From assembly GCA_018221045.1 (NCBI GenBank), contig JAAOXT010000027.1:536-64535 (forward strand): DNA of 64,000 nt, given 5' to 3'. The notes beneath the pieces were generated by a model. It saw only the letters and a list, made by a program, of their open reading frames with translations. It was not told the DNA's origin and ran no database searches. Shown here piece after piece: positions 6,772-63,942 of this stretch. The stretch is from Nanobdellota archaeon. GTDB lineage: Archaea; Nanobdellota; Nanobdellia; JAAOXT01. Both the position numbers and the translations under genes were made by a program. Within the stretch, counting starts at the first letter, position 1. Every line of letters begins with the position of its first letter.

Positions 6772-6772
6772 A

Positions 6773-7498
6773 ATGAAGATTAAAAAAACAGAGATTTTAA
6801 CATGGATGGTGGTCGTAACCTTAATGCTAACACTGGTTAACAGTTATACGACTTTTAACTTAGGAAGCAAGTTGGATTCTATAACAGGAAGCGCTGTTGA
6901 AGTAAAACAAGGTGAAGTGAAGGAAACACAGCCTTTGGGAGCTCAAAAACCCGCGCTTCAACCCAACGTTCAAGTCAGCGTTGACGACGACCCAGTGAAA
7001 GGCTCCGCGAACGCGCCTGTAACAATCGTTGAGTTCAGCGACTTTGAATGCCCGTTCTGCGCCAGGTTCTATGAACAAACAATGGGACTAATCGATGAGA
7101 ACTACATTCAAACAGGAAAGGTTAAACTCGTGTTCAGGGACTTTCCGCTAGCATTTCACGAGAACGCTCAGAAAGCATCAGAAGCAGCCGAATGCGCTGA
7201 CGAGCAAGGAAAGTTCTGGGAATACCACGACAGCTTATTCGAAAACCAAGGGGAATGGTCTTCCATAGGAGTTAACAAGTTTAAGGAGTACGCACAAGAA
7301 CTCGGACTAAACACCGAAAAATTTGACGCGTGCCTTGATTCAGGCAAGTACGCGAGCGAAGTGCAAAAAGACTTAAGCGATGGCCAAGGTTATGGGGTTT
7401 CAGGCACTCCAACGTTCTTCGTGAACGGAATAAAAATCGTTGGAGCCCAACCATACAGCGCGTTTCAACAGTTAATTGAACAGGAGTTGGCTAAATGA
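6773..7498 (+). CDS. secreted or membrane-anchored DsbA-family thiol:disulfide oxidoreductase
   Basis: The signal anchor is MKIKKTEILTWMVVVTLMLTLV. The thioredoxin motif is FSDFECPFCARFY and the C-terminal cis-Pro region is VSGTPTFFVNG. The track ORF begins at 6713, but the ATG at 6773 follows the upstream stop directly. Confidence 0.8.
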   Translation: MKIKKTEILTWMVVVTLMLTLVNSYTTFNLGSKLDSITGSAVEVKQGEVKETQPLGAQKPALQPNVQVSVDDDPVKGSANAPVTIVEFSDFECPFCARFYEQTMGLIDENYIQTGKVKLVFRDFPLAFHENAQKASEAAECADEQGKFWEYHDSLFENQGEWSSIGVNKFKEYAQELGLNTEKFDACLDSGKYASEVQKDLSDGQGYGVSGTPTFFVNGIKIVGAQPYSAFQQLIEQELAK

Positions 7499-8288: not shown

Positions 8289-8333
8289 AATCATTACATT
8301 AATTACGTTATAATTAATTACAATCCAGTAGAT

Positions 8334-34670: not shown

Positions 34671-35553
34671 CCATTGCAGGTCGGTTAGTTTTGATAATTC
34701 CCATGAAAGCAACTTGGAAAATGATTAAGTAAACCGGGACGAAATAAAAAATTTCTTTTTGCAGTTCCAAACCCAAAAACGAGCCGAGAATAATCACCAT
34801 GGTAGTGCCCAAAGCAGGGATTATCACTGTAGCCATCATGTACATTAAAGCTAAAGGATTCAGTTTCGCTCCATACTCCTTAATGTTAACCCTTTGCTTA
34901 CTGCTAAGAGTGTGAACAATGGACTCCAACGTTTTAGCGATATCGGACCCTGCCCTCATGGCGTTGGACACCTGCCAAACAACTCTTCTCAACTCGGCTG
35001 AAGGGTTTCTTAAAGCAATATCTTCGATAGAACGGGCCTGCGACTCCCCTGCTTTGATTTGTTTTATCGCAATCATAAACTCTTTAGAAATCTCCCCGTA
35101 ATCCCCTTTTGCAATCCCTTCAATCGCGTCTATTAAAGGAATCCCTGATTTAACCCTTATCGTTAAGTGCCTCAGAGCAAACAAAAGATGTTTTTCAGAC
35201 CTTTTAACCTTCTGCATAATCTTGAACTTGGGGTAATTGATAAGGTAAACGTAAGCGGTCACCATCAACGCGCCAGCAACCCCAAAAGTCATCGTAAGAT
35301 TCTGTGCGGAGAATTCTTTGATGATGAGCAGGACGAAAAGCATGGATGACAATCCAATGAAGAACATGAATCCAGCAGCAAAAATGACCAGTCTTAAATA
35401 ATCCATTGGCTCAATTTCAATCTCTGCTTGAAATAACTCAACGCTTAACTCAGGATAAAACTTTTTTAAGGACTCTGTAACAAACCGAAGAGGCTTTGAA
35501 ACTTTTAAAACCTGACTGACAGGCATGGGGAGAAACGGCAGGAACTTAATCAC
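34663..35553 (-). CDS. type IV pilus platform protein, TadB/FlaJ-half-like, locus 2
   Basis: It is a paralogue of 20095-20946 (ALRHLTIRVKSGIPLIDAI, LRRVVWQVSNAMRAGSDIAKTL). Confidence 0.75.
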   Translation of the reverse strand: MIKFLPFLPMPVSQVLKVSKPLRFVTESLKKFYPELSVELFQAEIEIEPMDYLRLVIFAAGFMFFIGLSSMLFVLLIIKEFSAQNLTMTFGVAGALMVTAYVYLINYPKFKIMQKVKRSEKHLLFALRHLTIRVKSGIPLIDAIEGIAKGDYGEISKEFMIAIKQIKAGESQARSIEDIALRNPSAELRRVVWQVSNAMRAGSDIAKTLESIVHTLSSKQRVNIKEYGAKLNPLALMYMMATVIIPALGTTMVIILGSFLGLELQKEIFYFVPVYLIIFQVAFMGIIKTNRPAMDV

Positions 35554-37367
35554 TTCTTCTTAACCCCCTTTCTTTTCTTCTTTACCAACCTTTTTTTAGC
35601 AAGAGACTTTTTCTTCGTTTTTTTCTTAACCGACTTTTTTTTAGCTTCTTTCTTTTTCACAGTTTTAGGTTCCAATTTCTTTTCTTTTTTTTGTTCCACC
35701 TTTTTTTCCTTAACACTTTTTTTCTTTGCAGGTTTTTTTGGGGGAGGAGTTTTTTTGAGTTCTTCAATCACTTTTTGACTCAGATTGGTTTCACTCTTTT
35801 TGGTCTTCACTTTTTTCGTGACAACAGGTGCTTCAATCTCTTTCCATAATTTGCCCAACAATTCTTTAGGACTCGCGTTCTTTCTAACCTCTTGTAACAA
35901 TTTTTCTTTGTGAGAGTAATAAGTGGAAACAATTTTTCCAACAGTGTTAACAGTGTTCACGCCGTGCTTGACCATCCAGTTTAGGACGCCGATTTTTTCC
36001 TTAAGATCTTTTTCAACTTCTGAGCGAGTCAGGCCAGTAAACATTTCTAGGTCGTCGAGAACCCTGATGCTTTCATTATCTTTTTCGTACTTGTCAAAAG
36101 CGGGTTTCCATCTGAAAACCCTGTTGACGTTAATTAATTCTCTTCCTTCTGCCTTCCCGGATTCTAAAAGCTCGGATACTTCCAAAATCCTTCTTATGCC
36201 CTTTCTTCTATGCCTATAAACAACAACTATCAACGGCAAAGTGCTGACCATTGATTCAGGCAGGTTTATCGGAGGATTGGTAAGTCTTCTGACGGTTTGT
36301 TCGGCGGTGTCTGCGTGCACTGTTGCGTAAACGCTGTGACCAGTGTGAATGGCTTCGAACAGGACTTCAGCCTCTTGCTGACGCCTTACTTCCCCTACGA
36401 TGATTCTGTCCGGCCTCATCCTTAAAGAGTTGACAAGCAAGTCAAGCATTCTCACTCCACCTTTCCCTTCAGGGTTCGGCTCCCTAGTGGTTAAAGGAAC
36501 CCATTGCAAGAACTTAGGAAGCATTATTTCTCTGGTGTCTTCAATGCTGATAACCCTCTGGTTTGGGGGGATGAAAGGCATGCAGGAAGTCATGAAAGTG
36601 GTTTTCCCGCTAGCCGTCCCGCCGGAAAACATGATGCTCATCTCGTACTGCATGGCCAGCCAGATAAAACTAACGATTTCCGAAGTCACTGTCCTGTTTT
36701 CGATTAATTCTGTTATGGTCCACGGTTTTCTTCTGAATTTACGAATCGTTATTGTGTTACCAGCAGACGAAATAGGGAATAACGTGGCGTTAACCCTGTC
36801 ACCAGTGATGAGGTGAGCGTCCAATAACGGGTTCAAATTGCTTATGCTCCGGCCAATCTCTCTAGCAATGCTGGCAGCGTAATCGTATATCTGGCCCTCA
36901 TTATCAATGCGAATATTGGTTTTCAGCCAGCCATACTTTTTATGGTAAACCCAAATATTGCTTTCAGAACTGTTGATGACAATCTCTTCAAGGTTTTCAT
37001 CGTTAAGCAAGAATTCAATAGTTCCTAAACCAAGGGTTTCGTGAATGAGGAACCCGGCAAGTATTTTAAGCGTCCTGTCAGACTCGTTAGGCAGTTCTTT
37101 CTTCAGTAATTCAAGAATCTTATCTGAAAACACTTTCCGAGTCTTTTGCACAGATTTAACGTCCAAAGCCTCCTTCGGGGATAAGGGAACAGCGCTAATC
37201 ATTTCTTCCTTAATCTTTTCAAGAATTGCCTTAGAACCAATGCCAATCACAGGCAATTTTATGATGTACAAAGGAGTGAATTCGTCTGGACTGTGGGTTA
37301 TCTTGATGTTGACTGGAACGTTATCAGCAGTTATTTTATAAACTTCAATTTTTTCCGTTTCCTTCAT
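35550..37367 (-). CDS. type II/IV secretion-family ATPase (ArlI/PilB-like) with a 97-aa Lys-rich C-terminal tail, locus 2
   Basis: The core motifs are FSGGTASGKTTFM, SIEDTREI, RMRPDRIIVGEVR and HTGHSVYATVHA. The tail runs KKVKTKKSE...KKRLVKKKRKGVKKK. The start MKETEKIEVYK at 37367 aligns with the locus 1 paralogue; the track start is 37424. Confidence 0.9.
   Translation of the reverse strand: MKETEKIEVYKITADNVPVNIKITHSPDEFTPLYIIKLPVIGIGSKAILEKIKEEMISAVPLSPKEALDVKSVQKTRKVFSDKILELLKKELPNESDRTLKILAGFLIHETLGLGTIEFLLNDENLEEIVINSSESNIWVYHKKYGWLKTNIRIDNEGQIYDYAASIAREIGRSISNLNPLLDAHLITGDRVNATLFPISSAGNTITIRKFRRKPWTITELIENRTVTSEIVSFIWLAMQYEMSIMFSGGTASGKTTFMTSCMPFIPPNQRVISIEDTREIMLPKFLQWVPLTTREPNPEGKGGVRMLDLLVNSLRMRPDRIIVGEVRRQQEAEVLFEAIHTGHSVYATVHADTAEQTVRRLTNPPINLPESMVSTLPLIVVVYRHRRKGIRRILEVSELLESGKAEGRELINVNRVFRWKPAFDKYEKDNESIRVLDDLEMFTGLTRSEVEKDLKEKIGVLNWMVKHGVNTVNTVGKIVSTYYSHKEKLLQEVRKNASPKELLGKLWKEIEAPVVTKKVKTKKSETNLSQKVIEELKKTPPPKKPAKKKSVKEKKVEQKKEKKLEPKTVKKKEAKKKSVKKKTKKKSLAKKRLVKKKRKGVKKK
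36397..36433. repeat. 37-nt stretch identical to 21492-21528
   Basis: It has the same sequence as the locus 1 ATPase at the codons for RPDRIIVGE. Confidence 0.85.
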
Positions 37368-37683
37368 CATTTTCCTCTCTCTTTTTTTTTTCTTCAACAC
37401 CACCTTCTTTTTTTTCTTCCACAATCTTTAAAACAACCTTGCCAAAAGGAGTGTAATCAACCGTAATCAACCCGTTTGATTCTAAGGTTTTAGCCCACTC
37501 TTCAACAAGTTTTTCTTCTTCACCGAACTTTTTGACAAAAAATTTGAGATCCTCTTTTTTCTTCTGTTTAAGGTGGGAGAGCATTACGTCAACTTCTGTA
37601 AGGATTTCTCCTCCAAAACCGTGTTTCACCACTTTTTTTAGAGGTTTTTTCAATTTTTTTTTAAACAATTTTTTTAGATTCAT
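37345..37683 (-). CDS. small Lys/Glu-rich wHTH-like protein preceding the locus 2 ATPase
   Basis: LVEEWAKTLESNGLITVDYTPFGKVVLKI is homologous to the C-terminus of 22447-23100. Confidence 0.5.
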   Translation of the reverse strand: MNLKKLFKKKLKKPLKKVVKHGFGGEILTEVDVMLSHLKQKKKEDLKFFVKKFGEEEKLVEEWAKTLESNGLITVDYTPFGKVVLKIVEEKKEGGVEEKKKREENDEGNGKN

Positions 37684-54435: not shown

Positions 54436-55308
54436 TTAGTATCTTGGTTGGGCTACAATGCTTATTTGAGGTGAGTCCGTGCAATACCTGTAAACAACGA
54501 AAGCGTTCAGTCTTCCTGAAGCCTCGTCAAAATCGTCCAGTGGAGCCACGTTAAAAACCGCTTTTAAACTCTTATCAGTCCCGCTTATCAGTTTAACATC
54601 AGTAGTAGTGCAAGTGAACTCGTCAACCCCTTCCACGCAGTCAAAGTGGGGTTGCTCCACCTCTTCCATGTTAATTCTTCCACCCATCTTAGGAATGGTT
54701 AGCACGACTGTTTTCACGTACTCGGGAGCACCATAATAAGAATCGCTGATCGTGTCGTTGCCCACAAAACCTTTAACCTTGTCATTATGAACGTTGATTT
54801 TTAGGAAAGCATTCTCTTTCTCGTCGTAAAGACGATTAACCTCAAATGACATGTCAACCACTCCCCTGTTAGTGCCTGACAGCATTTCAGGAACTTCGCC
54901 GTTCCAGTTATTGCCTGCCACGAACACGTCTTGATAAGAAATGGTTCTGTAAACGTAGCACAACCTCATTTTAGGCATGTACGAGCCCCTGACAGCAAGG
55001 TCTTCAGGGATTTGCATGACCCAGCTGAACTCTGCGTCCTCTTCAGGGTGCAGTTTGCTAACAGTTTTTTTCATGCCTCCAGTGACTTTAAGGTCAGCGG
55101 TGTTAAGAATCTCGCCATAAATTTTTTCTGCAACAACGTCGCCTTGATTGGTTATTTTGGCGTTAATGGTTAACTCGTCACCCGGCCTTAACAAGGCCGA
55201 ATCCGCTTCAAAAGAGTCTATGATAATTCCTTTTCCTTTTGGTTGTTCTCCAACGCAACCTAACAGGATAATCATTGTCAGAAAAACGATTATTGGTAGG
55301 GCTTTCAT
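54436..55308 (-). CDS. lipobox surface protein, scaffold paralogue D (290 aa)
   Basis: The signal peptide MKALPIIVFLTMIILLGC has a lipobox. It is clearly paralogous to 55352-56392 (QIPEDLAV..CYVY, ..VYRYC.. C-terminus). Confidence 0.6.
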   Translation of the reverse strand: MKALPIIVFLTMIILLGCVGEQPKGKGIIIDSFEADSALLRPGDELTINAKITNQGDVVAEKIYGEILNTADLKVTGGMKKTVSKLHPEEDAEFSWVMQIPEDLAVRGSYMPKMRLCYVYRTISYQDVFVAGNNWNGEVPEMLSGTNRGVVDMSFEVNRLYDEKENAFLKINVHNDKVKGFVGNDTISDSYYGAPEYVKTVVLTIPKMGGRINMEEVEQPHFDCVEGVDEFTCTTTDVKLISGTDKSLKAVFNVAPLDDFDEASGRLNAFVVYRYCTDSPQISIVAQPRY

Positions 55309-55351
55309 TCTAATAATGATAATCAGTGTAATCGCTCTTTTATAAAAGTTT

Positions 55352-56392
55352 TCAGTCAGGTTCAGCAGTGATGGTCAGGGCGGGGCTTTGCACGCAGTAC
55401 CTGTAATCAATTATTGCTCTTATTCTTCCGCTGACCTCGCTGTCACTTCTTCCGGGGTTGGTGTTGAAGAATATTTTGAGGCTTCTCTCCAAGCCGACCA
55501 TCATTCTAACGTTTTTCGCAGTGCAAACGACTTGCGCGCCGGGCTTCACTACTCCTTGATTAAACTCTTCCAGCACTGTTTCGTCACTGCTTTGAATCTC
55601 GCAGCTGAAGTCCGCTTGCTGAATGCCTGGCTCGTTGAATTTCTTATCATACCCCGTGAAATTGATTATGGTTCGGGTTTCCGGCTCTCCTGTCGCGTTT
55701 AAGAACTCTTCAGTCAGCCCAGTTATTATCAGGGTTACTTTGGTTATGAGGTTCTCGTTTCCGTAATTGTAAACACTGATATCGTTTATCTTGTTCGTGT
55801 TGTTCGCCACGAAACCGTTTTCAATATTGGTTATAGTTACTTCAAATGATTGGTCCTGCTTTTCCCCTTTGTAAGGTTCTTTGGTTTCAAAACCCACTTT
55901 TAACGGCGCCCGGCTAGAACCTTTAACCAGCACGGGTATATCTTGATTCCATCTTGTGCCAACAAATAACACGTCAGAGTAAGCTGTTGAGTTGTAAACG
56001 TAACAGACTCTGGCAAAAGGGTAGTAATTATTGTACACTGCTAGGTCTTCAGGCACTTGAAAGTCCCAAACTATTTCGTCCTTGTCAAAAACGTCAAGGT
56101 TGGGTGACGTGGTCGTCTGACGCAAGGGGGTAAGGTTTATCAATTCCCCGTAAGCGTAGACTTCTGAGAAGACTTGCCTTGCCTGCAGGTTCCCAACGTT
56201 TTGGACTGTGAGAACGAATGTTAGCTCGTCTTTGGGTTCAGCGTGGGTTTGCGTGGTGGTGAAATTCAGTATTGCCACCCCGTTCCCGAGGACAACTTCT
56301 TCTCCGCTCCTCGTCGTTTCGGTTTGCGTGCATCCAGCCATAACCACACTAGTTAAAATGATGAGTGTTGTTAGCAAAACTTTTTTTTTCAT
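55352..56392 (-). CDS. lipobox surface protein, scaffold paralogue C (346 aa)
   Basis: The signal peptide is MKKKVLLTTLIILTSVVMAGC. The blocks PKDELTFVLTVQNVGN, QVPEDLAVYNNYYPFARVCYVYNSTAYSDVLFVG and the C-terminal GRIRAIIDYRYC are present. Confidence 0.6.
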   Translation of the reverse strand: MKKKVLLTTLIILTSVVMAGCTQTETTRSGEEVVLGNGVAILNFTTTQTHAEPKDELTFVLTVQNVGNLQARQVFSEVYAYGELINLTPLRQTTTSPNLDVFDKDEIVWDFQVPEDLAVYNNYYPFARVCYVYNSTAYSDVLFVGTRWNQDIPVLVKGSSRAPLKVGFETKEPYKGEKQDQSFEVTITNIENGFVANNTNKINDISVYNYGNENLITKVTLIITGLTEEFLNATGEPETRTIINFTGYDKKFNEPGIQQADFSCEIQSSDETVLEEFNQGVVKPGAQVVCTAKNVRMMVGLERSLKIFFNTNPGRSDSEVSGRIRAIIDYRYCVQSPALTITAEPD

Positions 56393-59300
56393 ATTAGGTT
56401 AGGCGGGACCACGCTTACGCTCGTGTCACCGCTAATAACATAAGTGTAGTAAATCTTAATATTAAAAGTGTACGTTTTTTGAGGGATCTTGTTGAACTGA
56501 AGGCTTCTCATCTCGCTGCCAGGGTCAGTCGCGTTCCCAAAAGTGAATGGAAGTATGAATATTCTTCCTCCAGCAAGTCTTTCAGGAGATATTATCTGGC
56601 TAACCGAGTTAGTGCCTAATTGAGTTGTCATCTCCACTCCTTGCCGCTGGCACGTGCACGCACCGTAGGAAATGCATTTATCGCTGAAAAGGTCGGAGCC
56701 TTCTGGGCAAGTGCAACTACTAGTGACTGCTTCACATTTTCCAAGATAACATATCATTCCTTTACCGCACATTTCAAAGTCGGTCGCGTCATCTACTAGG
56801 CCGTTGCAGTCATCGTCCAAACCGTTGCATTTTTCATAAGTCAAGGCGTCGCACACACTCCATTGAGCGTTAACGCATTGTTGTTCTCCGCTAACGCACG
56901 ACCCAACAGTGTAGTCCTGGCAAGCCCTGCTTATTGGTTCCCCTTCCATCCCGTCAACCATTCCATCCCCTTCATTGTCCACTCCATCGCAAAGACTTTC
57001 CTGACCCCAAGCTTCCGCCCTCCCTCCGGCGAGCTCGTCTTCCCCATCAGTTAAACCGTTCCAATCGTCGTCAAAACCGTTGTCCAGTAAGTCCTGGCAA
57101 TTCCAGTTTTCACAACCAATTCCTGTGACTCCGGCGAGTTCTAAGGGGTTGCAAACACCGTCGTTGCAAAGCCCTGGCGCGCAATAACTTGTTGAGCAAT
57201 AACCCCTGCTGTCAACGCCAACATAGCACCTGTGACCATTCTCGTCGCGAGAACAGGTTTGATCGCAGTCCCCGCCAGCACTGATTATTGTTGTTACGTC
57301 ACTGCAAGTGTAATAAGTAATTTCCGAAAGGGTTGTGCGGGCAACGTTCCCGTCACAGTTCGGCGCGTTTAATATTTCTTGTCCAATATCATAAGCTATT
57401 TGATTTAACGGGTTTCCAGGTTCTTCCACTGGACCGCAAGTGTTCGTTGCCTCCCCGCAACCCAATCCCGAGTCGCAGCACCACTTGTCAACTCCTGAAC
57501 CGCACGTTTCTTCACTTTCATAACAAAAAGATCCTGAGGTTTTGCAGGAGAGCGCTTCGTCCCCGCAAACCATTGTTCTTGACTCGTAAGTGTTAGAACA
57601 ACACCACTCTCCTCCTTCAATGGAGCAATGGTTCTCGTCTTGAGCGCACACAGTGGCCACGCAACTATTAATGGACGTGGATGAGAACGTGACGTAACCA
57701 GTTTCTCCTTCTAAGACGTGCACTGCCTTCACGCCTGAATAAGCGGACGCGGTGTCAAAGTAGATGCCTATTGAGTCCACGTGCAAGTAACCCGATGGAG
57801 GAGTGTAATCGTTTGTTAGCACCCAGTTGACTGTTTCAGGACTTGATAAGTAGTCTGCGTAAGTTGTCGTGGTTTCAGGGTAATAATATTTGATTGTTCC
57901 TTCACTGTTCTTCGCCTTTAACTCTAAGTAGTCGTTAACCACGAAAACCAGTTCTCCCAGGTTTTGGGCTGGAGAAGTTATGGTAAGCCCTTTGGATATT
58001 AACGATAATGAGTAATCCCCTAGGTTCGCGCTAGTGATTTCTGAACCACCGCTTTCGTACATGCTTATCAAATGGTTCGTCCAACTCGTCGGACAGTAAT
58101 TTTTGGTTGTTGACTCGCCTGTAAAGAAGCCGTTCCCAGATTTGTCAACCGCGCTTAGTGCTTTGCCGTTTTGGTTAATGCATGGCGTCGCGGTCTTCCC
58201 GTCAGTCACGCCCCAAATGTTTACGCCGAGGTCAGGGTCTTCCTCTCCATCGTCGTCTTGCACGTAGAAAGGGTCTGAAGGAGTTAATGAAAGAAGAGTT
58301 GGGGTGGTTGGTGGAGTAATTGGACCTGTGTACTCTACTTCTCCGAGAGGATGAATGTCTAAAAAGAGGGTGTGAGATATTAGTGGAGTCCAGCGAAGGA
58401 TTGTTGAATCCAGTGTTATTCCTCCTCTTAAGTAAACACCGTTCTCGCACGCGCCAGTCATTAAATCAACAATTCTTCCTCCGCAACAACCGGGTTCAAT
58501 CATTGTTTGGTAATAATCTTTAAGGTCTACAAAATTGTTTCCACAACAAATGAAGTCAGGGCTTGTCACGTAGCGCGGCGTATCATCGCAACAAATGAAG
58601 GTTTCTCCACTCCCAGCGCTTTCAACGAATCTTCCTCCGCAACATTCTTTTTCTTGAGCGTCACTAGCGGTGAAAAGGTTTCCGTCGCAGCAAGCGTACA
58701 TTTGAGTGAGGTACTGTGTTGTCTTGCAGCAAGCACTTCCTTCTGGGACGGGACTGCAATCAGTTGAGCATGAGCAAAAGTTTTCTCCTGGCTCGCACAG
58801 GAAGTTGCCGCATTCCTGCAGGCTTCCCCCTTTGGTTTCAATGCATTGTCCTTGCACGAACGCGTCAGCGTTAATAACTCCTTTCGTCCAACCATATTTT
58901 TCTAAGCCATCTTCTGAGAGATCAAGTTCTTGGGGATAAGTTACCACGACTATTGCCTGTTTTTTTCCAATGTATCCTTCTCCAATGTTTTGCACGCTGA
59001 AAACATAATTATATTTGGGACTGTTACCTGAATCAGGGAATAGGATTGGTTGACTGGTTTCAGGGTGGATGCCGACCTCGCTGTTGGACTCGCTGGAAGT
59101 CCCTGATATCTTCCATTGCTCGCCACTTCTCTTTTTTCTTTGCACTTCGCTTTGGCTTAGTGCTATAACGTTTTGTGTCGCGCTCGTCGAGTAATCATAA
59201 TTTACGGAGTAGCTTATTCTATGGTCGTAAGGAAGGTTGTTTATCATGACATCTATAGGTGCTTGCAATAACCATAAGACGTCAAGCTCGTCGTCAGCTA

Positions 59301-60357
59301 GTAATTTGTTCATCGCTCTTTGCGAGTAAGTAACTGTTGGGTCCATGTCGTAGAATCCTTCACACCATTCAATTGATGATTCGGTTGTTTTCACTTCCTG
59401 GTCTCTACCTGACCCGAACCCGCAGGCACAGTTTGTAGGGCAGTCGTCGCTGATGATTAATGCTGTGGAAGATTCTGAACCGTAAAACCTGCAATCGCAA
59501 GTGTATTGGCTCACGCTTGAAGCGTCAAGCGTGTCTGTCGCACAATAATAACTGTTCTCTGAACAAGGGGTTATTCCATCATACCAAGGATAGTATGATT
59601 GACTTATTGTTTCTCCGCCAATGTTGACGCACGAGTTGGATTCGCCGCAAGTAACTCCTGAACTCTTGTCAGAGCAGCACCATGAATTGCACGTGGTAGA
59701 GTCCGGACCGCAGGAAGGGGTGTAGCAGTAAAACTGTATTCTTCCAGTTTCTTCTACTGGAACGTATTGATAGTTTTCAGGACATTTTTGAACAAAGTAT
59801 TGTTCGTTAGGGTGTTGTAAAGCTAGTTGCGCGAGGTTAGGGTCGTTCCTGAACTGGTCCATTATCATGCCAATGTAGGAGGGGTCGCTGCTGTGAGGCC
59901 TGCAAATGCCTGACATGACATCAGCGTAGCTTGAGCCGGTTATTGATTGGCAAACGTATTCGCCGTCAACAAGTTTTAGAGAATAGCCTGAAGGGCATGA
60001 GCGAGGGTTTCCTTCGGTCTCGCAGTCCAAGGTAGACGGGTTGTAATCGTTGTTAGGGCATTGTGCTCGGTAAGTGTTAGGCTCGTACGCGCCCCCGCAT
60101 TCCACTATCTTGAAAGGGGCGACGTTGTCCAGTGATACCACAATGTTTTTCGCGTCGTCTCCGAGAGCGTTATTCCTGATTACGAGTTCAACGTATTCTT
60201 GACCTGCTGGCAGTAGGGTGGTGGTTCCTACCCTGAATTCTAAGGCCCCGACTCCTTCGTTTGATTTTAGCTTAGACTCTGTTTTTGATGGACCCGTTGC
60301 GGTGCAGCCAGCTAGAATGATGATAAGTGATAAAGTGAGCCAAGTTTTTTGGTTCAT
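56389..60357 (-). CDS. 1322-aa Cys-rich lipobox surface protein, scaffold paralogue B with large insertions
   Basis: The signal peptide is MNQKTWLTLSLIIILAGC. I count about 83 Cys by hand. It has WCC modules, a CC-doublet array, acidic CxGxDxxxDG repeats and the scaffold C-terminus TFNIKIYYTYV. It overlaps each neighbour by 4 nt. Confidence 0.7.
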   Translation of the reverse strand: MNQKTWLTLSLIIILAGCTATGPSKTESKLKSNEGVGALEFRVGTTTLLPAGQEYVELVIRNNALGDDAKNIVVSLDNVAPFKIVECGGAYEPNTYRAQCPNNDYNPSTLDCETEGNPRSCPSGYSLKLVDGEYVCQSITGSSYADVMSGICRPHSSDPSYIGMIMDQFRNDPNLAQLALQHPNEQYFVQKCPENYQYVPVEETGRIQFYCYTPSCGPDSTTCNSWCCSDKSSGVTCGESNSCVNIGGETISQSYYPWYDGITPCSENSYYCATDTLDASSVSQYTCDCRFYGSESSTALIISDDCPTNCACGFGSGRDQEVKTTESSIEWCEGFYDMDPTVTYSQRAMNKLLADDELDVLWLLQAPIDVMINNLPYDHRISYSVNYDYSTSATQNVIALSQSEVQRKKRSGEQWKISGTSSESNSEVGIHPETSQPILFPDSGNSPKYNYVFSVQNIGEGYIGKKQAIVVVTYPQELDLSEDGLEKYGWTKGVINADAFVQGQCIETKGGSLQECGNFLCEPGENFCSCSTDCSPVPEGSACCKTTQYLTQMYACCDGNLFTASDAQEKECCGGRFVESAGSGETFICCDDTPRYVTSPDFICCGNNFVDLKDYYQTMIEPGCCGGRIVDLMTGACENGVYLRGGITLDSTILRWTPLISHTLFLDIHPLGEVEYTGPITPPTTPTLLSLTPSDPFYVQDDDGEEDPDLGVNIWGVTDGKTATPCINQNGKALSAVDKSGNGFFTGESTTKNYCPTSWTNHLISMYESGGSEITSANLGDYSLSLISKGLTITSPAQNLGELVFVVNDYLELKAKNSEGTIKYYYPETTTTYADYLSSPETVNWVLTNDYTPPSGYLHVDSIGIYFDTASAYSGVKAVHVLEGETGYVTFSSTSINSCVATVCAQDENHCSIEGGEWCCSNTYESRTMVCGDEALSCKTSGSFCYESEETCGSGVDKWCCDSGLGCGEATNTCGPVEEPGNPLNQIAYDIGQEILNAPNCDGNVARTTLSEITYYTCSDVTTIISAGGDCDQTCSRDENGHRCYVGVDSRGYCSTSYCAPGLCNDGVCNPLELAGVTGIGCENWNCQDLLDNGFDDDWNGLTDGEDELAGGRAEAWGQESLCDGVDNEGDGMVDGMEGEPISRACQDYTVGSCVSGEQQCVNAQWSVCDALTYEKCNGLDDDCNGLVDDATDFEMCGKGMICYLGKCEAVTSSCTCPEGSDLFSDKCISYGACTCQRQGVEMTTQLGTNSVSQIISPERLAGGRIFILPFTFGNATDPGSEMRSLQFNKIPQKTYTFNIKIYYTYVISGDTSVSVVPPNLI

Positions 60358-62729
60358 TGTTTCACCACCGTTCCTTGAGCGCTTCCTTTTTTGGTGTAAG
60401 TGTAGAAGACGTCGCCTCTTATCAGAAAGGTTTTTTCTTTTTCAGCTTTTAGAGGGTTTACGTATATTGGGAATCTGTACAGGCTTCCTTCTTCCACGCT
60501 GGGCAGTTGGCTTTCGCAAACCACGTATCCTAATTTAGATAAGGCGTCCAGGCTTTCTGTTAAGTATTCGTCTTCCACTTTATCAAGCAGTCCTGTTATC
60601 ACGAGCAGTTGGTCTTCCGTGTTCGCGGTTTGGTTGTAGCACTGGAATTCTTTAGTGCTCACCGGTTCTTCCGAGAATCTTTGGCATAGGAACCATCCTC
60701 CAACGCTTGTCCTCAGGCTGGGAGGGCAAGTGTCAGGCACTTCGTACGCATCGTACTTGTTTTCTTGTCTGACGATTCCTGAACCTGCTTCCTTGCACCC
60801 CGTGTCATAGCTTTCCGCGCACACGACCGTGTTCAGCGCTCCAGCGTCATCTAAATAACTGTTTTTGCAGCACCAAGTTTCGCTTCCACCCGTGCAGTAG
60901 TTTTCCTGCCCGGCCCTGCAAGCGTAGTAACCGCAGGGCTTGTCAATGCTTAATAAGTCCCAGCCCACGTCGTAGAGTTGTTGAGCGTTTAATTCGTAGA
61001 ACCCGGGCGCGCACGCCCCTTCGCAGCGCGTTCTGTCCTCGTTCAGCGTCATGCCGTCAGTCGTGCAGTAAGTCTGGTCGTTGATTCGGGTTGGGTCGGA
61101 TAATTCTTGAGGTACTGATAAGTATATCTTGTTCACCTGGTTGACGTAACCGCTTCCAGCGTTCACTATTCCCCAAGTGAATATGGACGTGCCTGTCGTG
61201 TCGAAGACGGGTTGTGTTCCGATGCTTTGACTGCTCAGAACTGTTCCGTAGGATACAGTGGTTTTTGGGTTGGAGAACTGCATGAGTCCCTGCTCCATTT
61301 TTTCTTTAGCGTACTTACTTTCTATAACTGTTATTGAGTAAAGGGTTCGAGTGTAGTATTCAGTGGTTGCTTCCGCGACAATGTTTACCGCGTCGCCTTC
61401 AAGGACTCCGATGACTTCGATGGTTTCGCAGTTTATTCTCGCGCTGGTTCCTTTTGGAATGTCTGTTACGCGGAGGTAATCATCCCATTTCCACACTGTT
61501 TCGGTGATGTTGTAACCAGTGGTTCTGCCCCTGCCTTTGCAGTCAAACAATACTTTTTGGCCTTCCACTCCTCCAGGAAGTATTTCTCCTGTGAAAGTGA
61601 CGTTCATTTCTTTGATGTCAGCATCCCCGTCATTTTTTATTTCTATCACCGCGCTGGTGCGATTCGTGAAAAGGTTTATCCTATCGGGCAGTAATTGTAC
61701 GCTGGTTACAGTGAAGCCCGTGTTGGGCGGCGCGCTCCCAATGTTTCCTATTAAGCTTCCTCCTGACCTGAAACTGGCTTGTTGTTGTAGCTCGTAGGCT
61801 TCAGGGTTGGTGAGAGGCATTAGAATAGTGTTGAAAGAATTGGCCAGGTTTTCGCTCATCCCTCTGCTCGCTCCTGCCATGACTCCGAAACTGCTTCTAA
61901 TCACTGGATTGGTTACAAGAAATGGCATCCAGATTATTGCGTAGAAAAATATGAAAGTTACTCCGAGCATCCATGTGTAGTTGAAGATTTCTGGGCTTAT
62001 GCTTTTTGCAGGGTAGTCAACCATGAGGAAGACTCCTATGAGCAGTCCTGCTTTTATGAGGTAGCTGAGGATGTTGTAGAAAGGACCGCCTTCTGGACCG
62101 AGTGGGGGGACTCCTGCTATTGCTTGGCTTGGAGACCACATGTTAAAAATCATTAAGTTGAAGAAGCCTTGTATTAAGTCTATACTAAATATAAATCCTA
62201 TAAGACGTATTATGAATAGGAATAGTACGATTATGTATATTGCTTTTCCCGCGTTTCCTTCGCTTTCTCCGCTATCCTTGGCTGTTATGTAGCTTATTAG
62301 CATGAGGATTATGGTTGGCACGTTTGCTAAGATTGCAATGATCATGTTGGAGCCTTCAAGGATTGCGCCAGCAGCCCCGCCTCCAGGTAGCATGAGGTTT
62401 CCCATGACCACGAAGGGAGCTATGAGTCCTAGGAATTTTAGTTCTCCGAAGAGTATTTTTGAGAGGGCTATCGCGAGAATGAGGGTTATCCAGGAGAAAA
62501 TCCATTCCATTCCTTGGAAGATGCCGCCTAAAGCGATGACAACCATTAAGATAATGATTGTTGCCAGGACTTGTGGCAGCCCGATATTGCCAATGTCTAA
62601 TCCTAGTTCATCACCACTTATTCCTATGTCCACCATTCCCCGCTTGTTTGTTTTAGGCCAACCCATTATATAGACGTTAAATAATTTGGAGCTGATTTGT
62701 TTTAAACTTTTTCTATCCAATAAGCGCAA
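60354..62729 (-). CDS. polytopic membrane protein fused to a scaffold ectodomain, paralogue A (791 aa)
   Basis: The first approx. 300 aa contain about 7-9 hydrophobic helices. The ectodomain has NRTSAVIEIKNDGDADIKEM, the Cys-rich block CGYYACRAGQENYCTGGSETWCCKNSY and the C-terminus GDVFYTYT. Confidence 0.65.
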   Translation of the reverse strand: MRLLDRKSLKQISSKLFNVYIMGWPKTNKRGMVDIGISGDELGLDIGNIGLPQVLATIIILMVVIALGGIFQGMEWIFSWITLILAIALSKILFGELKFLGLIAPFVVMGNLMLPGGGAAGAILEGSNMIIAILANVPTIILMLISYITAKDSGESEGNAGKAIYIIVLFLFIIRLIGFIFSIDLIQGFFNLMIFNMWSPSQAIAGVPPLGPEGGPFYNILSYLIKAGLLIGVFLMVDYPAKSISPEIFNYTWMLGVTFIFFYAIIWMPFLVTNPVIRSSFGVMAGASRGMSENLANSFNTILMPLTNPEAYELQQQASFRSGGSLIGNIGSAPPNTGFTVTSVQLLPDRINLFTNRTSAVIEIKNDGDADIKEMNVTFTGEILPGGVEGQKVLFDCKGRGRTTGYNITETVWKWDDYLRVTDIPKGTSARINCETIEVIGVLEGDAVNIVAEATTEYYTRTLYSITVIESKYAKEKMEQGLMQFSNPKTTVSYGTVLSSQSIGTQPVFDTTGTSIFTWGIVNAGSGYVNQVNKIYLSVPQELSDPTRINDQTYCTTDGMTLNEDRTRCEGACAPGFYELNAQQLYDVGWDLLSIDKPCGYYACRAGQENYCTGGSETWCCKNSYLDDAGALNTVVCAESYDTGCKEAGSGIVRQENKYDAYEVPDTCPPSLRTSVGGWFLCQRFSEEPVSTKEFQCYNQTANTEDQLLVITGLLDKVEDEYLTESLDALSKLGYVVCESQLPSVEEGSLYRFPIYVNPLKAEKEKTFLIRGDVFYTYTKKGSAQGTVVKQ

Positions 62730-62757
62730 TTAAAAAGAAAAAGATTAAGTGAATTTG

Positions 62758-63942
62758 TCAGTTCCAGTACATTCTCACGCTGTTCAAGTTAAATCTGCCT
62801 TCCTGACTCGTGATGGTTAACTTGTTCGACCCTAAATTTATCTCAGAACTTGGGAGAATGAACCTGTTGTAACCCCTGTTTATGGAGTCAGCTCTTTCGT
62901 ACTTCGTGACTTGTCTGAACACGAATTCTAAACCCCCGTTCGGAGCCATGTTAGCCAAATCGTACTCCACGGTAAAGTTGCTAGCTTTATCGACAACGTC
63001 TCCCGGAACGTTATAATAAATGTCGTAGCTTGAGACGCCCACGTCCTTTTCAAACAAGGAAAATTGCACGTCAGATAAATCATAAACGCCTCCAGGACTT
63101 GTTGAAAAACTTATGGTGTTAATACCTGTTGTCAACCCCGCTGAAGTGGTGCTGACTTCTGCTTGGTATCTCGCTTCTCTTTCAGAGGGCTTGCCATTGT
63201 AAATTAGGACGTCGTTCAGCCTGATAGACATGGTTCCACTTGTTTGAGCGTTCACGACTTTGAAATAAATTTTTGCTGTTCCGTCTACGACGCTTGATAA
63301 ACTGAATTCTCGAGCAACCTCGTTCACGTTCAGCGAGTACGCGTGCTCAACAATTTTGAAACTGTTAAGCCCGCAAACCTGTGTTTCCCAGAAAGCCATT
63401 CCTTTGAAAACGCATTCTATTCTTAAGGTATGCGTGCCTTCGTAAACATTGTTATCTAAGTCTAGGGAAACTATTTGCCCGTTCACTGCTGTTTCGGAAT
63501 AAATGTTCTTGCTGTCAACGAAAACGTTAATTGTTGGCGTCCCGATAACTGTTCCTGTTTTGAAACTAACAGTTATTCTTTCGAGGCCCGATTCATCAAA
63601 GTTCAAGCTTTTGGTGTAAGTGCCTGCGCTGAAAATGCTGGTTGTTAACCTTAGTTGGGGCATGCTCTCCAAATCTTTGCCGATTAAAGGGTAGTCAAGG
63701 CTGGCGGTGCCGAAATCATGAGTCATTAGGGGTTCTCCAGTGCCTTTACCAACCCATCCTATTCCTATGATGTGGAATAAGTCGTGCTCGCCTAAGGTAG
63801 CGTTGCCGTCCCCGCTTATCACTTCGTTTTCGGGGTTGAGTAGTCTTTGCCTTTCAGGGGGCTGAACCCAAATAATGTAGAACACGAAAAGGATTATGAA
63901 TAGGATTAACGCGACTGGAACCGCTATTTGACCCTTTTTCAT
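62758..63942 (-). CDS. class III (pilin-like) signal peptide protein with repeated beta-sandwich-like modules; first gene of the surface operon
   Basis: The N-terminus is MKKGQIAVPVALILFIILFVFYIIWV. Three loosely similar modules follow, each ending in ..G.N.L/I.I/F....G.F.L..V.. patterns. Confidence 0.6.
   Translation of the reverse strand: MKKGQIAVPVALILFIILFVFYIIWVQPPERQRLLNPENEVISGDGNATLGEHDLFHIIGIGWVGKGTGEPLMTHDFGTASLDYPLIGKDLESMPQLRLTTSIFSAGTYTKSLNFDESGLERITVSFKTGTVIGTPTINVFVDSKNIYSETAVNGQIVSLDLDNNVYEGTHTLRIECVFKGMAFWETQVCGLNSFKIVEHAYSLNVNEVAREFSLSSVVDGTAKIYFKVVNAQTSGTMSIRLNDVLIYNGKPSEREARYQAEVSTTSAGLTTGINTISFSTSPGGVYDLSDVQFSLFEKDVGVSSYDIYYNVPGDVVDKASNFTVEYDLANMAPNGGLEFVFRQVTKYERADSINRGYNRFILPSSEINLGSNKLTITSQEGRFNLNSVRMYWN

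What the first reader, a model, noticed from the sequence alone, without database searches (positions are those of the whole stretch)
56389..60357. 1322-aa lipobox protein is the same scaffold inflated by cysteine-rich insertions with WCC modules
The N-terminal, central and C-terminal scaffold blocks of the 290- and 346-aa paralogues are all present. They are separated by long insertions, and I count about 83 Cys by hand.

A recurring module has the form C..(G)G.(E/D/S).WCC(S/D/K)(N/D/S)...(V)C......C. It appears at TTCNSWCCSDKSSGVTCGESNSC, HCSIEGGEWCCSNTYESRTMVCGDEALSC and CGSGVDKWCCDSGLGCGEATNTC. It also appears once in the upstream 791-aa protein (CTGGSETWCCKNSYLDDAGALNTVVC).

This Cys density is unusual for an extracellular archaeal protein. 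It implies either extensive disulfide cross-linking or metal coordination.
Basis: seen in the sequence. Interest (0 to 1): 0.7.

Follow-up and report, generated by a model that had tools for sequence, protein, structure and literature searches.

The report
Cysteine-rich giant archaeal surface lipoprotein
This gene encodes a surface lipoprotein of a tiny DPANN archaeon whose relatives are about 350 residues long. Here two exposed loops have swollen by about 940 residues of cysteine-rich modules that are probably disulfide-bonded, which makes it an unusual but explicable variant of an uncharacterised, conserved cell-surface gene cluster.

Summary
ORF 56389-60357(-) encodes 1322 aa with an LAGC lipobox and exactly 83 Cys (6.3%, against 0.8% in the other ORFs of the window). 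It has three WCC modules, and the upstream 791-aa protein has a fourth.

The scaffold claim is right, but the best relatives are not the 346/290-aa neighbours. They are an unnamed family of 313-480-aa lipobox proteins with no Pfam match. A profile of that family hits the protein in three collinear pieces: aa 1-106, 322-497 and 1220-1319. An AlphaFold model of a family member (pLDDT 91) shows two beta-sandwich domains.

In four other DPANN contigs with DNA in hand, a 353-854-aa protein sits at the same position of a conserved operon. The operon order is pilin-like protein, membrane protein, this "type-1" lipoprotein, then 2-3 "type-2" lipoproteins. So this copy is a loop-inflated orthologue.

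The inserts are a mosaic:
- galaxin-like di-Cys repeats (PF24748)
- MopE-type motifs (PF11617 relatives)
- a Cys-poor stretch of about 260 aa
- the WCC six-Cys module, which matches no Pfam family and no PDB sequence

Disulfide bonding is favoured. 31 of 33 family members have an even Cys count after the lipobox Cys, and a membrane-anchored DsbA-like protein is encoded in the window. Function, probably adhesion or a role in the cell envelope, is inferred.

The parts
56389..60357 (-). Gene for the 1322-aa type-1 surface lipoprotein (MBR9678545.1, 'Nanoarchaeota archaeon' MAG)
   Evidence: ORF. Identity. Family profile E 4e-91. dN/dS 0.08 against a 97%-identical strain.
60304..60357 (-). Signal peptide and lipobox (aa 1-18, LAGC, Cys18)
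   Evidence: Read from the sequence. The lipobox Gly-Cys is nearly invariant in the family alignment.
60040..60357 (-). N-terminal scaffold block, aa 1-106. It holds the first strands of beta-sandwich domain 1, the RNNALGDDAKN motif and the conserved Cys pair C87/C100.
   Evidence: Type-1 profile positions 1-111, i-E 1.3e-31. No amino-acid change between the two strains.
59395..60039 (-). Insertion 1, aa 107-321, about 215 aa with 19 Cys, in the loop after the conserved Cys pair of domain 1
   Evidence: It is the gap between profile pieces 1 and 2. The equivalent loop is short and variable in the family. dN/dS is 0.03.
59629..59727 (-). WCC module 1 (aa 211-243): C-x4-C-x6-C-x3(..W)-CC-x8-CG-x5-C
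   Evidence: leave-one-out score 26.9, against a Cys-fixed shuffle mean of 9.3.
58867..59394 (-). Central scaffold block, aa 322-497: the rest of domain 1 and the first half of domain 2, ending at the YGW motif
   Evidence: Type-1 profile positions 95-275, i-E 3.8e-47. It is the best stretch for about 40 of the 150 listed library hits.
56701..58866 (-). Insertion 2, aa 498-1219, about 720 aa, in the variable loop of domain 2
   Evidence: It is the gap between profile pieces 2 and 3. The same site carries short Cys-pair insertions in many family members, and a 22-Cys insertion in a type-2 paralogue of locus L002.
58447..58845 (-). Galaxin-like di-Cys repeat array, aa 505-637, with six CC[GD][GDN]x[FLI] units
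   Evidence: PF24748 at 33.5 bits against a cutoff of 28, E 4.5e-8. Of nine Cys-fixed shuffles, eight gave no hit and one gave 15 bits. It is one of only two confidently modelled parts of the insert, as beta-hairpins with pLDDT 64-84.
57664..58437 (-). Cys-poor, Thr/Ser-rich middle region, aa 641-898 (2 Cys)
   Evidence: Composition. No Pfam or PDB match. pLDDT is mostly below 50, with 60-65 for aa about 807-847. It holds 14 of the 38 substitutions between the strains.
57436..57663 (-). Tandem WCC modules 2 and 3 (aa 899-945 and 945-974)
   Evidence: No Pfam match at E<=10. No PDB sequence match.
56707..57099 (-). MopE-type acidic Cys motifs with the G.C..G.Q.C..G.W..C linker, aa about 1087-1217. 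The first two motif copies are degenerate.
   Evidence: It is the best stretch for about 110 of the 150 listed hits, and the hits tested carry PF11617. The segment itself scores 17.6 bits, below the cutoff of 27. DNA repeat family D1 has three copies. pLDDT is 74-87.
56389..56700 (-). C-terminal scaffold block, aa 1220-1322: the last strands of domain 2 (KTYTFNIKIYYTYVISGDTSVSVVP)
   Evidence: Type-1 profile positions 280-352, i-E 3.9e-10. No amino-acid change between the strains.
60354..62729 (-). Upstream operon gene for the 791-aa (or 770-aa) membrane-anchored protein. Its stop overlaps the start of the 1322-aa gene by 4 nt.
   Evidence: About 7 hydrophobic segments. The orthologue in L005 matches the second half of the type-1 profile at 1e-7.
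60783..60923 (-). WCC module of the 791-aa protein (aa 603-649)
   Evidence: BLAST to module 2 of the 1322-aa protein gives E 0.005.
62758..63942 (-). First operon gene, 394 aa, with a class-III (prepilin-like) N-terminus MKKGQIAVPVAL
   Evidence: Orthologues in L007 (E 3e-39) and L008 (3e-21) keep the KGQ motif followed by a hydrophobic stretch.
55352..56392 (-). Type-2 lipoprotein paralogue, 346 aa. Its start overlaps the stop of the 1322-aa gene by 4 nt.
   Evidence: E 7e-46 to the 290-aa protein. Type-1 profile E 2e-8.
54436..55308 (-). Type-2 lipoprotein paralogue, 290 aa
   Evidence: 1e-4.
6773..7498 (+). Membrane-anchored DsbA-like thioredoxin (CPFC), a candidate extracytoplasmic disulfide oxidase or isomerase
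   Evidence: Thioredoxin_4 at 7e-40 and DSBA at 6e-22. Sequence.

Best explanation
The gene encodes the 'type-1' lipoprotein subunit of a conserved five-gene cell-surface operon of Woesearchaeota-like DPANN archaea.

The operon order is: pilin-like-signal protein, membrane-anchored protein, type-1 lipoprotein, then two or three type-2 lipoproteins. It always lies between a Hel308-like helicase and the PAC2 / aIF2-alpha / L44e / GINS / primase block. The canonical type-1 subunit is 313-480 aa, lipid-anchored through a lipobox Cys, and built of two beta-sandwich (Ig/CARDB/DUF11-like) domains.

In this species, two loops that are short, variable and carry Cys pairs in the rest of the family have grown by about 215 and about 720 residues. 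The added material came from internal duplication and accretion of small extracellular modules:
- three WCC six-Cys modules
- six galaxin-like di-Cys repeats
- three MopE-type acidic Cys motifs
- further Cys-rich stretches
- a Cys-poor Thr/Ser-rich region

The 82 Cys after the lipobox are mostly paired in intramolecular disulfides. These would be made outside the membrane, plausibly with the DsbA-like protein encoded in the window, and would turn the loops into a rigid, protease-resistant display surface. The most likely role is contact with another surface, such as a host cell, a particle or neighbouring envelope subunits.

What is shown: gene, family, fold class, insertion sites, mosaic content, purifying selection and synteny. 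What is inferred: disulfide state (from parity), lipidation and function.
For: **Family membership and collinearity**
-. The type-1 profile was built without this protein and gives E 4e-91 in three ordered pieces.

**Fold**
- The AF2 model of family member P0023 has pLDDT 91 and pTM 0.84, and is all-beta with two domains.
- Foldseek returns only tandem Ig-like adhesin, complement, integrin and DUF11 proteins.

**Positional orthology**
- L002, L005, L007 and L008 have a 353-, 360-, 854- or 477-aa type-1 gene in the same operon slot, with the same flanking genes. A fifth contig, for which only gene calls were available, has a 412-aa one.

**Loop inflation recurs**
- A 512-aa type-2 paralogue in L002 carries 22 Cys.
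- Small Cys-pair insertions sit at the same sites across the alignment.

**Real, constrained gene**
- All 83 Cys are kept in a 97%-identical strain.
- dN/dS is 0.02 in the scaffold and 0.11 in the inserts.
- GC3 of the inserts equals that of the scaffold and of neighbouring genes.

**Disulfide bonding**
- 31 of 33 family members have an even number of Cys after the lipobox Cys, over a range of 0-82 (binomial p 6.5e-8).
- Each WCC module has six Cys.
- A TM-anchored DsbA-like protein with CPFC is encoded in the window.

**Module identities**
-.
Against: - No experimental or coordinate-level evidence exists for any disulfide. The insert model is poor (mean pLDDT 46, WCC modules about 30).
- No VKOR/DsbB-type re-oxidising partner lies in the 64 kb.
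- The DsbA-like gene sits in a copper/metal island and may serve metal stress instead.
- DPANN of this kind usually live in anoxic habitats (my own knowledge), where exposed disulfides are less stable.
- Nothing ties the operon to adhesion specifically. Its invariant position next to housekeeping genes, at one copy per contig, fits a core envelope component equally well.
- The family members in the parity test are related to one another, so the p-value is optimistic.
Confidence: 0.55

Rival explanations
1. Metal coordination. The Cys clusters, together with the acidic MopE-type motifs, bind Cu, Zn, Fe or Ca. The protein would then be an extracellular metal buffer, scavenger or redox surface rather than a disulfide-knotted display.
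For: - MopE-type 'putative metal-binding' motifs are present.
- The window carries a copper/metal island with an HMA protein, a Cu P-type ATPase and an FtrD-like Fe-S protein next to the DsbA-like gene.
- Insert 3 is 17.8% Asp+Glu.
- The likely anoxic habitat disfavours disulfides (my own knowledge).
Against: - Even Cys parity in 31 of 33 family members is what pairing predicts and is not required by metal sites.
- There are only 11 His in 1322 aa.
- There are no CxxC-rich ferredoxin-like or metallothionein-like runs. The spacings are those of small extracellular disulfide modules.
- Two of the three MopE motifs have lost their Cys: DNEGDG and DNGFDDDWNG.
- Coral galaxin was reported not to bind Ca2+ (PMC2726143, citing Fukuda et al.).
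Confidence: 0.15
2. Core envelope lattice. The five-gene operon builds the S-layer-like coat of these cells. In that case the Cys-rich inserts mainly cross-link or thicken the lattice, partly through intermolecular disulfides, rather than recognise a partner.
For: - The operon is single-copy on each contig and sits at an invariant position beside PAC2, aIF2-alpha, L44e, GINS and primase in all five other contigs examined.
- All subunits are membrane- or lipid-anchored, and they share one scaffold.
- Overlapping stop and start codons suggest stoichiometric co-translation.
- The scaffold is under very strong purifying selection (dN/dS 0.02).
Against: - There is no sequence or fold match to any known S-layer protein. 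The only trace is one NCBIfam hit at E 0.007 for the 290-aa protein, far below its cutoff.
- A lattice subunit that varies from 313 to 1322 aa between relatives is hard to reconcile with a conserved lattice geometry.
- Changes between the two strains concentrate in the inserts, as expected for an exposed, interacting face.
Confidence: 0.25
3. Artefact or decaying gene. Under this reading the long ORF is an assembly chimera, or a scaffold gene invaded by non-functional repetitive sequence.
For: - The word-indexed protein database holds only one close relative.
- The metagenome scan found nothing.
- The AF2 model of the inserts is poor.
Against: - Two independent assemblies (an NCBI MAG and JGI 3300033153) give the same architecture, differing by a 1-aa indel.
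- There are 121 synonymous against 40 non-synonymous differences, and dN/dS in the inserts is 0.11.
- All 83 Cys are conserved.
- Insert GC3 matches the genome.
Confidence: 0.02

Closest known systems
Tandem Ig-like / CARDB / DUF11 beta-sandwich surface proteins, such as MSCRAMM adhesins (FnBPA, antigen I/II C123) and archaeal CARDB proteins
   Same: - The scaffold has two stacked beta-sandwich domains, is extracellular and is membrane-tethered.
- Foldseek hits at E 1e-5 to 1e-7.
- Weak CARDB matches for the type-2 paralogues.
   Different: - No Pfam family reaches threshold.
- TM-scores are about 0.2.
- The anchor is an N-terminal lipobox, not a sortase or PGF signal.
- Variation is concentrated in two loops that can grow to hundreds of residues.
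Galaxin and galaxin-like proteins (PF24748), coral skeletal organic-matrix proteins made of di-Cys tandem repeats (PMC2726143)
   Same: - Aa 505-637 is an array of CC-containing repeats that passes the Pfam gathering score.
- The match depends on non-Cys residues too.
- Both are extracellular, acidic and Cys-rich.
   Different: - Here there are six short units (13-20 aa) embedded as a loop insert in an archaeal lipoprotein.
- Common ancestry with the animal proteins is not established.
- There is no link to biomineralisation.
PF11617 Cu-binding_MopE 'putative metal-binding motif' repeat proteins
   Same: - Aa about 1117-1222 aligns with CDGxDNDCDGxxDE ... GxCxxGxQxCxxGxWxxC ... CNGxDDDCDG units of many such proteins.
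- The unit is modelled with pLDDT 74-87.
   Different: - There are only about 3 units, of which two have lost the Cys.
- The segment scores below the Pfam cutoff (17.6 against 27).
- The usual carriers are long multi-repeat proteins.
Six-Cys C-C-CC-C-C mini-domains, such as hevein-type/CBM18 peptides and inhibitor cystine knots (recalled from memory)
   Same: - The WCC module has the order of six Cys, C-C-CC-C-C.
- Module 3 even has the hevein spacing CC-x5-CG-x5-C.
   Different: - No Pfam hit at E<=10.
- No PDB sequence hit.
- The aromatic chitin-binding positions are absent.
- Spacing varies between the modules.
Archaeal lipobox lipoproteins (AliA/AliB pathway of Haloferax volcanii, PMC13631571)
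   Same: An N-terminal signal peptide ends in a [LVI][ASG][GA]C lipobox, and this is conserved in nearly all family members.
   Different: Lipidation is untested in DPANN, and no AliA/AliB search was made here.

Membership tests
Unnamed DPANN type-1 surface lipoprotein family (P0023, P0154, P0053 and others; no Pfam model) | Collinear match to the whole family profile: N-terminal RNNAxGxxAxN block, central EExExxW..AP / YxY / SQxE..RR block, and C-terminal KTYxF...YxY...V.P block | tested here: met
   A profile of 29 members built without this protein gives E 4e-91, as pieces aa 1-106, 322-497 and 1220-1319.
Unnamed DPANN type-1 surface lipoprotein family | N-terminal signal peptide ending in a lipobox Gly-Cys | tested here: met
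   LAGC with Cys18. G16 and C17 are present in at least 90% of sequences.
Unnamed DPANN type-1 surface lipoprotein family | Third position of the operon (pilin-like, membrane protein, type-1, then type-2 x2-3), between a helicase and PAC2 / aIF2-alpha / L44e / GINS / primase | tested here: met
   The window and L001, L002, L005, L007, L008 and the JGI 3300042731 contig.
Unnamed DPANN type-1 surface lipoprotein family | Two beta-sandwich domains | tested here: inconclusive
   This is shown for member P0023 (pLDDT 91). The scaffold of the 1322-aa protein itself was not modelled, because the tool's 1200-aa limit would split it.
CARDB (PF07705) | Pfam gathering score | tested here: not met
   No hit for the 1322-aa protein. 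The 346-aa and 290-aa proteins score 16.1 and 14.8 bits against a cutoff of 22.7.
Galaxin_repeat (PF24748) | Pfam gathering score on the di-Cys repeat array | tested here: met
   The segment aa 500-645 scores 33.5 bits against 28. The hit was not reported when the whole protein was scanned. In the Cys-fixed shuffle control, eight of nine gave no hit and one gave 15.3 bits.
Cu-binding_MopE (PF11617) | Pfam gathering score and the CDGxDNDCDG Cys/Asp pattern | tested here: inconclusive
   The score is 17.6 bits against a cutoff of 27. Only one of three copies keeps the full Cys pattern. phmmer nevertheless links the region to many PF11617 proteins.
EGF, granulin, knottin or hevein families (for the WCC module) | A sequence-profile match of the module to any such Pfam family or to a solved structure | tested here: not met
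   No Pfam family at E<=10 for any of the four modules. No PDB sequence at E<=10 with the module profile. hhalign to hevein-type sequences gives probability 3.8%.
EGF, granulin, knottin or hevein families (for the WCC module) | Fold and disulfide connectivity | not testable with these tools
   The modules were modelled at a pLDDT of about 30 and no coordinates are returned. Foldseek gave no hit with E<1.
Disulfide-bonded extracellular protein with a Dsb-type oxidation system | An extracytoplasmic thiol oxidase (DsbA-like) and a membrane re-oxidant (DsbB/VKOR) | tested here: inconclusive
   A DsbA-like protein is present. No membrane protein with a CxxC motif and no VKOR/DsbB Pfam hit was found among the TM proteins of the 64 kb. 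The rest of the genome was not available.
Archaeal S-layer proteins | Similarity to a known S-layer family, or lattice formation | tested here: not met
   No Pfam, NCBIfam, PDB or Foldseek match to an S-layer protein for the 1322-aa protein. Lattice formation cannot be tested here.
Type IV pilin-like proteins (for the 394-aa operon partner) | A class III signal peptide: [KR]G followed by Q/A/S and a hydrophobic stretch | tested here: inconclusive
   The KGQ motif followed by a hydrophobic stretch is conserved in three orthologues, but PF04021 was not reported for it. Pilus ATPase and platform genes, and a bona fide PF04021 protein, do exist in the window.

The most novel reading that the evidence does not exclude
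The five-gene operon could be a previously undescribed cell-surface apparatus specific to DPANN (Woesearchaeota-type) archaea. Its paralogous beta-sandwich subunits would present two hypervariable, disulfide-knotted loops as the organism's main contact or recognition surface for hosts or particles. Under this reading the WCC six-Cys unit is a new disulfide-rich mini-domain family, and loop inflation from about 350 to 1322 aa is the way these genome-reduced cells evolve new surface specificity.
Probability: 0.3. Interest if true: 0.7.

Novelty: new variant of a known kind. Interest (0 to 1): 0.5.

Why it matters
DPANN archaea are thought to depend on contact with other cells, yet the molecules they use for that contact are largely unknown.

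This analysis gives four concrete starting points:
- It defines a conserved, syntenic, unannotated five-gene surface operon.
- It defines a family of lipid-anchored two-domain proteins with two hot-spot loops.
- It describes one extreme member in which those loops carry about 940 residues of Cys-rich modules.
- It supplies a simple statistical argument (Cys-count parity) that an archaeon of a usually anaerobic lineage makes many extracellular disulfides.

These give targets for metaproteomics, cryo-ET labelling and recombinant binding studies. If the WCC unit proves to be a new fold, it adds a disulfide-rich mini-domain from Archaea, where such domains are rare.

Tried and rejected
- **Word-indexed homologue searches.** Searches with the 1322-aa protein, the 346-aa protein and a 31-sequence family alignment returned only near-identical proteins or 3 hits. 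The Cys-rich words probably swamped the 8000-candidate prefilter. The exhaustive HMMER search was what found the family.
- **Whole-protein library scans.** Pfam, NCBIfam, PHROGs and PDB-sequence scans gave nothing above threshold. The galaxin match appeared only when segments were scanned separately.
- **Hevein/CBM18 idea for the WCC module.** The idea came from memory of the CCS..G.CG....C pattern. It was rejected: no PF00187 hit and hhalign probability 3.8%.
- **Galaxin match as a pure Cys-spacing artefact.** This was tested with Cys-fixed shuffles and largely rejected.
- **Structure of insertion 2.** The model has mean pLDDT 46, the WCC modules were unmodelled, and Foldseek was empty. No coordinates are returned, so disulfide geometry could not be checked.
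- **The search for related loci.** The broad family alignment and the WCC alignment had no stretch conserved enough to search with. The narrower alignment found 2 loci in genome contigs. The single protein found none in metagenome contigs.
- **Recent horizontal acquisition of the inserts.** No support: GC3 is 0.46-0.50, against 0.46 in the scaffold and 0.44-0.53 in neighbouring genes. The internal DNA repeats are old, at 61-91% identity over 20-38 nt.
- **Positive selection on the inserts.** Rejected for this strain pair (dN/dS 0.11).
- **Literature.** Searches for a description of this operon or of Cys-rich DPANN surface proteins found nothing relevant. A search for the MAG name was useless.

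Full report
**1. Observation**

The ORF is as described: 56389..60357 on the minus strand, ATG start, 1322 aa. It has exactly 83 Cys (6.28%). The other 58 non-overlapping ORFs of the window average 0.82% Cys, and the next richest ORF has 3.4%.

The N-terminus MNQKTWLTLSLIIILAGC is a signal peptide with a lipobox. WCC occurs at aa 226, 918 and 959, and once in the upstream 791-aa protein (aa 619). Shuffles of the protein, or of its Cys-rich parts only, give on average 0.06-0.11 WCC, with P(>=3) about 1e-4.

Aligned, the four modules share C-x6-C-x(3-7, ending in W)-CC-x(5-16)-C-[GA]-[ED]-x(4-5)-C. That is six Cys per module, and two of the modules have one further Cys upstream. Each module, left out of a profile built from the other three, outscores 298-300 of 300 shuffles that keep its own Cys in place. 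The module is therefore a real sequence unit.

**2. Source and reality of the gene**

The protein is MBR9678545.1 of a MAG labelled 'Nanoarchaeota archaeon'. A 97%-identical copy lies on a 74-kb contig of JGI metagenome 3300033153, deposited as 'Candidatus Parvarchaeota archaeon Meg19_1012_Bin_507'.

The two copies differ by 37 substitutions and one 1-aa indel. All 83 Cys are kept. There is no change in the N- or C-terminal scaffold blocks, and most changes fall in insertion 2. Nei-Gojobori dN/dS is 0.08 overall, 0.02 for the scaffold and 0.11 for the inserts.

GC3 of the inserts (0.46-0.50) matches that of the scaffold (0.46) and of neighbouring genes (0.44-0.53). The higher total GC of the gene sits in the second codon position, that is, in amino-acid composition. 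The long ORF is thus a functional gene that has been resident for a long time. It is not a chimera or a recent import.

**3. The scaffold**

Direct comparison with the 346- and 290-aa neighbours is weak: E 4e-4, 0.027, and nothing for the C-terminus. Those two are clear paralogues of each other (7e-46).

The exhaustive HMMER search with aa 123-1322 found 533 proteins at E<=1e-3. About 40 of the 150 listed are lipobox proteins of 310-480 aa. They match aa 322-497, and in a second stretch the C-terminus. None of them has a Pfam domain.

A profile of 29 such proteins was built without any window sequence. It hits the 1322-aa protein at E 4e-91 in three ordered pieces: aa 1-106, 322-497 and 1220-1319. 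The 346- and 290-aa proteins score only 2e-8 and 1e-4. The protein is therefore a member of this 'type-1' family (36% identity to P0023 over aligned columns). The neighbours belong to a more distant 'type-2' branch.

AlphaFold2 on member P0023 with the 31-sequence alignment gives pLDDT 91 and pTM 0.84, with two all-beta domains. Foldseek finds only generic tandem beta-sandwich surface proteins at TM about 0.2. These include FnBPA, antigen I/II C123, integrin, complement MG domains, factor XIII, a cohesin dyad, and viral DUF11 and clumping-factor-like proteins.

Insertion 1 (aa 107-321) falls in the long loop that follows the family's conserved Cys pair (C87/C100 here). Insertion 2 (aa 498-1219) falls after the conserved YGW motif. 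This is the most variable region of the alignment and has the lowest pLDDT of the folded part.

**4. Genomic context**

The gene is third in a tightly packed minus-strand operon: 394 aa, 791 aa, 1322 aa, 346 aa, 290 aa. There are 4-nt stop/start overlaps on both sides of the 1322-aa gene.

The same operon lies between a Hel308-like helicase and PAC2 / aIF2-alpha / (S27e) / L44e / GINS / primase in:
- L001
- L002 and L003
- L005, a Woesearchaeota MAG
- L007
- a JGI contig
- L008, on a 542-kb contig

In those contigs the third gene is 353, 360, 854, 412 or 477 aa. BLAST shows three collinear blocks against the 1322-aa protein, for example 2-100/3-95, 108-233/338-461 and 305-352/1264-1318 for L002.

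The first gene keeps a class-III-like N-terminus (MKKGQIAVP..., MVKKGQTAVP......QKGQATSYG...). The second gene is membrane-anchored. In L005 its C-terminal half matches the second half of the type-1 profile (1e-7).

The operon therefore encodes several paralogous surface proteins, each anchored by a membrane segment or a lipid. Loop inflation is not unique to this gene. The 512-aa type-2 protein of L002 has a 22-Cys insert at the same loop, and the p791-like proteins carry Cys-rich stretches, including a relaxed module CGKDSGWECCSGIDSEC in L005.

**5. Content of the inserts**

Scanned as separate segments:
- **Aa 500-645** matches PF24748 Galaxin_repeat (33.5 bits against a cutoff of 28, E 4.5e-8). 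Nine shuffles with the Cys fixed gave eight misses and one 15-bit hit, so the match also rests on the CCGG.F / CCDG.L context. Galaxins are extracellular coral matrix proteins made of di-Cys tandem repeats (PMC2726143).
- **Aa about 1117-1222** is the region matched by about 110 of the 150 listed hits. The three tested carry 9-16 PF11617 Cu-binding_MopE motifs. The segment itself scores 17.6 bits, below the cutoff of 27. Two of its three motif copies have lost their Cys.
- **The four WCC modules, aa 87-212, 244-336, 985-1092 and the Cys-poor aa 641-898** match nothing significant (aa 87-212 gave only chance-level matches at E about 5).

The WCC profile finds no PDB sequence. It finds no other protein among the 150 listed hits or the six-frame translations of all fetched loci, apart from the two proteins of this species.

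A remembered resemblance to the six-Cys hevein framework was tested with hhalign and rejected (probability 3.8%).

AlphaFold2 on aa 498-1242 was poor (mean pLDDT 46). Confident stretches were only the galaxin-like beta-hairpins (64-84) and the MopE region (74-87). The WCC modules were at about 30, and Foldseek gave no hit with E below 3.

**6. Disulfide or metal**

Across 33 family members with a recognisable lipobox, the number of Cys after the lipobox Cys is even in 31. The counts are 0, 2, 4, 6, 8, 10, 22 and 82, and the binomial p is 6.5e-8. The sequences are related, so the p-value is optimistic. But the counts themselves differ widely, so parity has been maintained through many gains and losses. 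Obligatory pairing predicts this, and metal sites do not.

The protein has 11 His. The module spacings are those of small extracellular disulfide domains.

The window encodes a TM-anchored DsbA-like thioredoxin with CPFC. That gene lies in a copper/metal island: an HMA membrane protein, an FtrD-like protein and a Cu P-type ATPase. No membrane protein with a CxxC motif (VKOR/DsbB type) occurs in the 64 kb.

I therefore favour mostly intramolecular disulfides (about 0.7). Ca2+ or another metal may bind at the acidic MopE-type motifs.

**7. Function**

What is shown is an extracytoplasmic, probably lipid-anchored, two-domain scaffold. Its two variable loops are enormously enlarged here with constrained, Cys-rich modules. 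Changes between strains concentrate in insertion 2.

The best-supported reading is a display or contact surface, for adhesion to a host cell, a particle or neighbouring envelope subunits. A rival that cannot be separated with these tools is a core envelope (S-layer-like) role. It is suggested by the operon's invariant, single-copy, housekeeping-adjacent position.

**8. Novelty**

The kind is known: a modular, Cys-rich extracellular protein on an Ig-like scaffold. Two of the insert types belong to described repeat families.

Three things appear undescribed:
- the scaffold family and its five-gene operon, which have no Pfam or NCBIfam model and which three literature searches did not turn up
- the loop-insertion architecture in an archaeal lipoprotein
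- the WCC module

I rate it a new variant of a known kind, with interest 0.5.

**Limits**
- Only the best 150 of the 533 library hits were visible, so weak WCC relatives cannot be excluded.
- No atomic coordinates were available.
- The rest of the genome was not searched.

Noticed in passing
window 5842-10505 (+): A metal island: an HMA-domain membrane protein ending in CGCGGSTCGGSAGSCCGGG (5842-6771), the TM-anchored DsbA-like protein with CPFC (6773-7498), an FtrD-like membrane Fe-S protein (7495-7944) and an HMA-bearing P-type (likely Cu) ATPase (8334-10505). The DsbA-like gene may therefore belong to copper handling rather than to general disulfide formation.
   Followed up: partly
window 19122-22450 (-) and 33681-37424 (-): Two type IV pilus/archaellum-like assembly loci. 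Each has a T2SSE ATPase (503 aa and 624 aa) and two T2SSF platform proteins.
   Followed up: partly
window 26116-28287 (-): A 723-aa FG-GAP / beta-propeller protein with a bona fide class III (prepilin) signal peptide, MIKGQVSVEYLII (PF04021).
   Followed up: no
window 62758-63942 (-); L007 6698-7888; L008 7104-8321: The first gene of the surface operon keeps a KGQ motif followed by a hydrophobic N-terminus in three distant orthologues. This suggests processing by a prepilin peptidase, although PF04021 was not reported for it.
   Followed up: partly
L002 3231-4769: A type-2 paralogue of a related archaeon is 512 aa and carries its own 22-Cys insertion at the domain-2 loop. Cys-rich loop inflation has thus happened independently in a different subunit.
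   Followed up: partly
L002 2125-2874 versus L003 1888-2850: The same type-2 gene is 249 aa in one assembly and at least 321 aa in another. The two diverge after aa 238, which points to a frameshift, an assembly error or strain variation.
   Followed up: no
L005 63-1985: The p791-like protein of a Woesearchaeota MAG has a single TM segment, where the window protein has about 7 hydrophobic segments. It also carries a relaxed WCC-like unit, CGKDSGWECCSGIDSECTEIIAGGC.
   Followed up: partly
protein P0134: The best single-stretch match to the MopE-type region, including the CxxGxxCxxGxC tail, comes from the streptophyte alga Spirogloea muscicola. This repeat type is therefore shared across domains of life.
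   Followed up: no
window 54436-63942 and flanks: The Hel308-like helicase / surface operon / PAC2 / aIF2-alpha / S27e / L44e / GINS / primase order is conserved in every related contig examined. It is a useful synteny marker for this DPANN lineage.
   Followed up: yes
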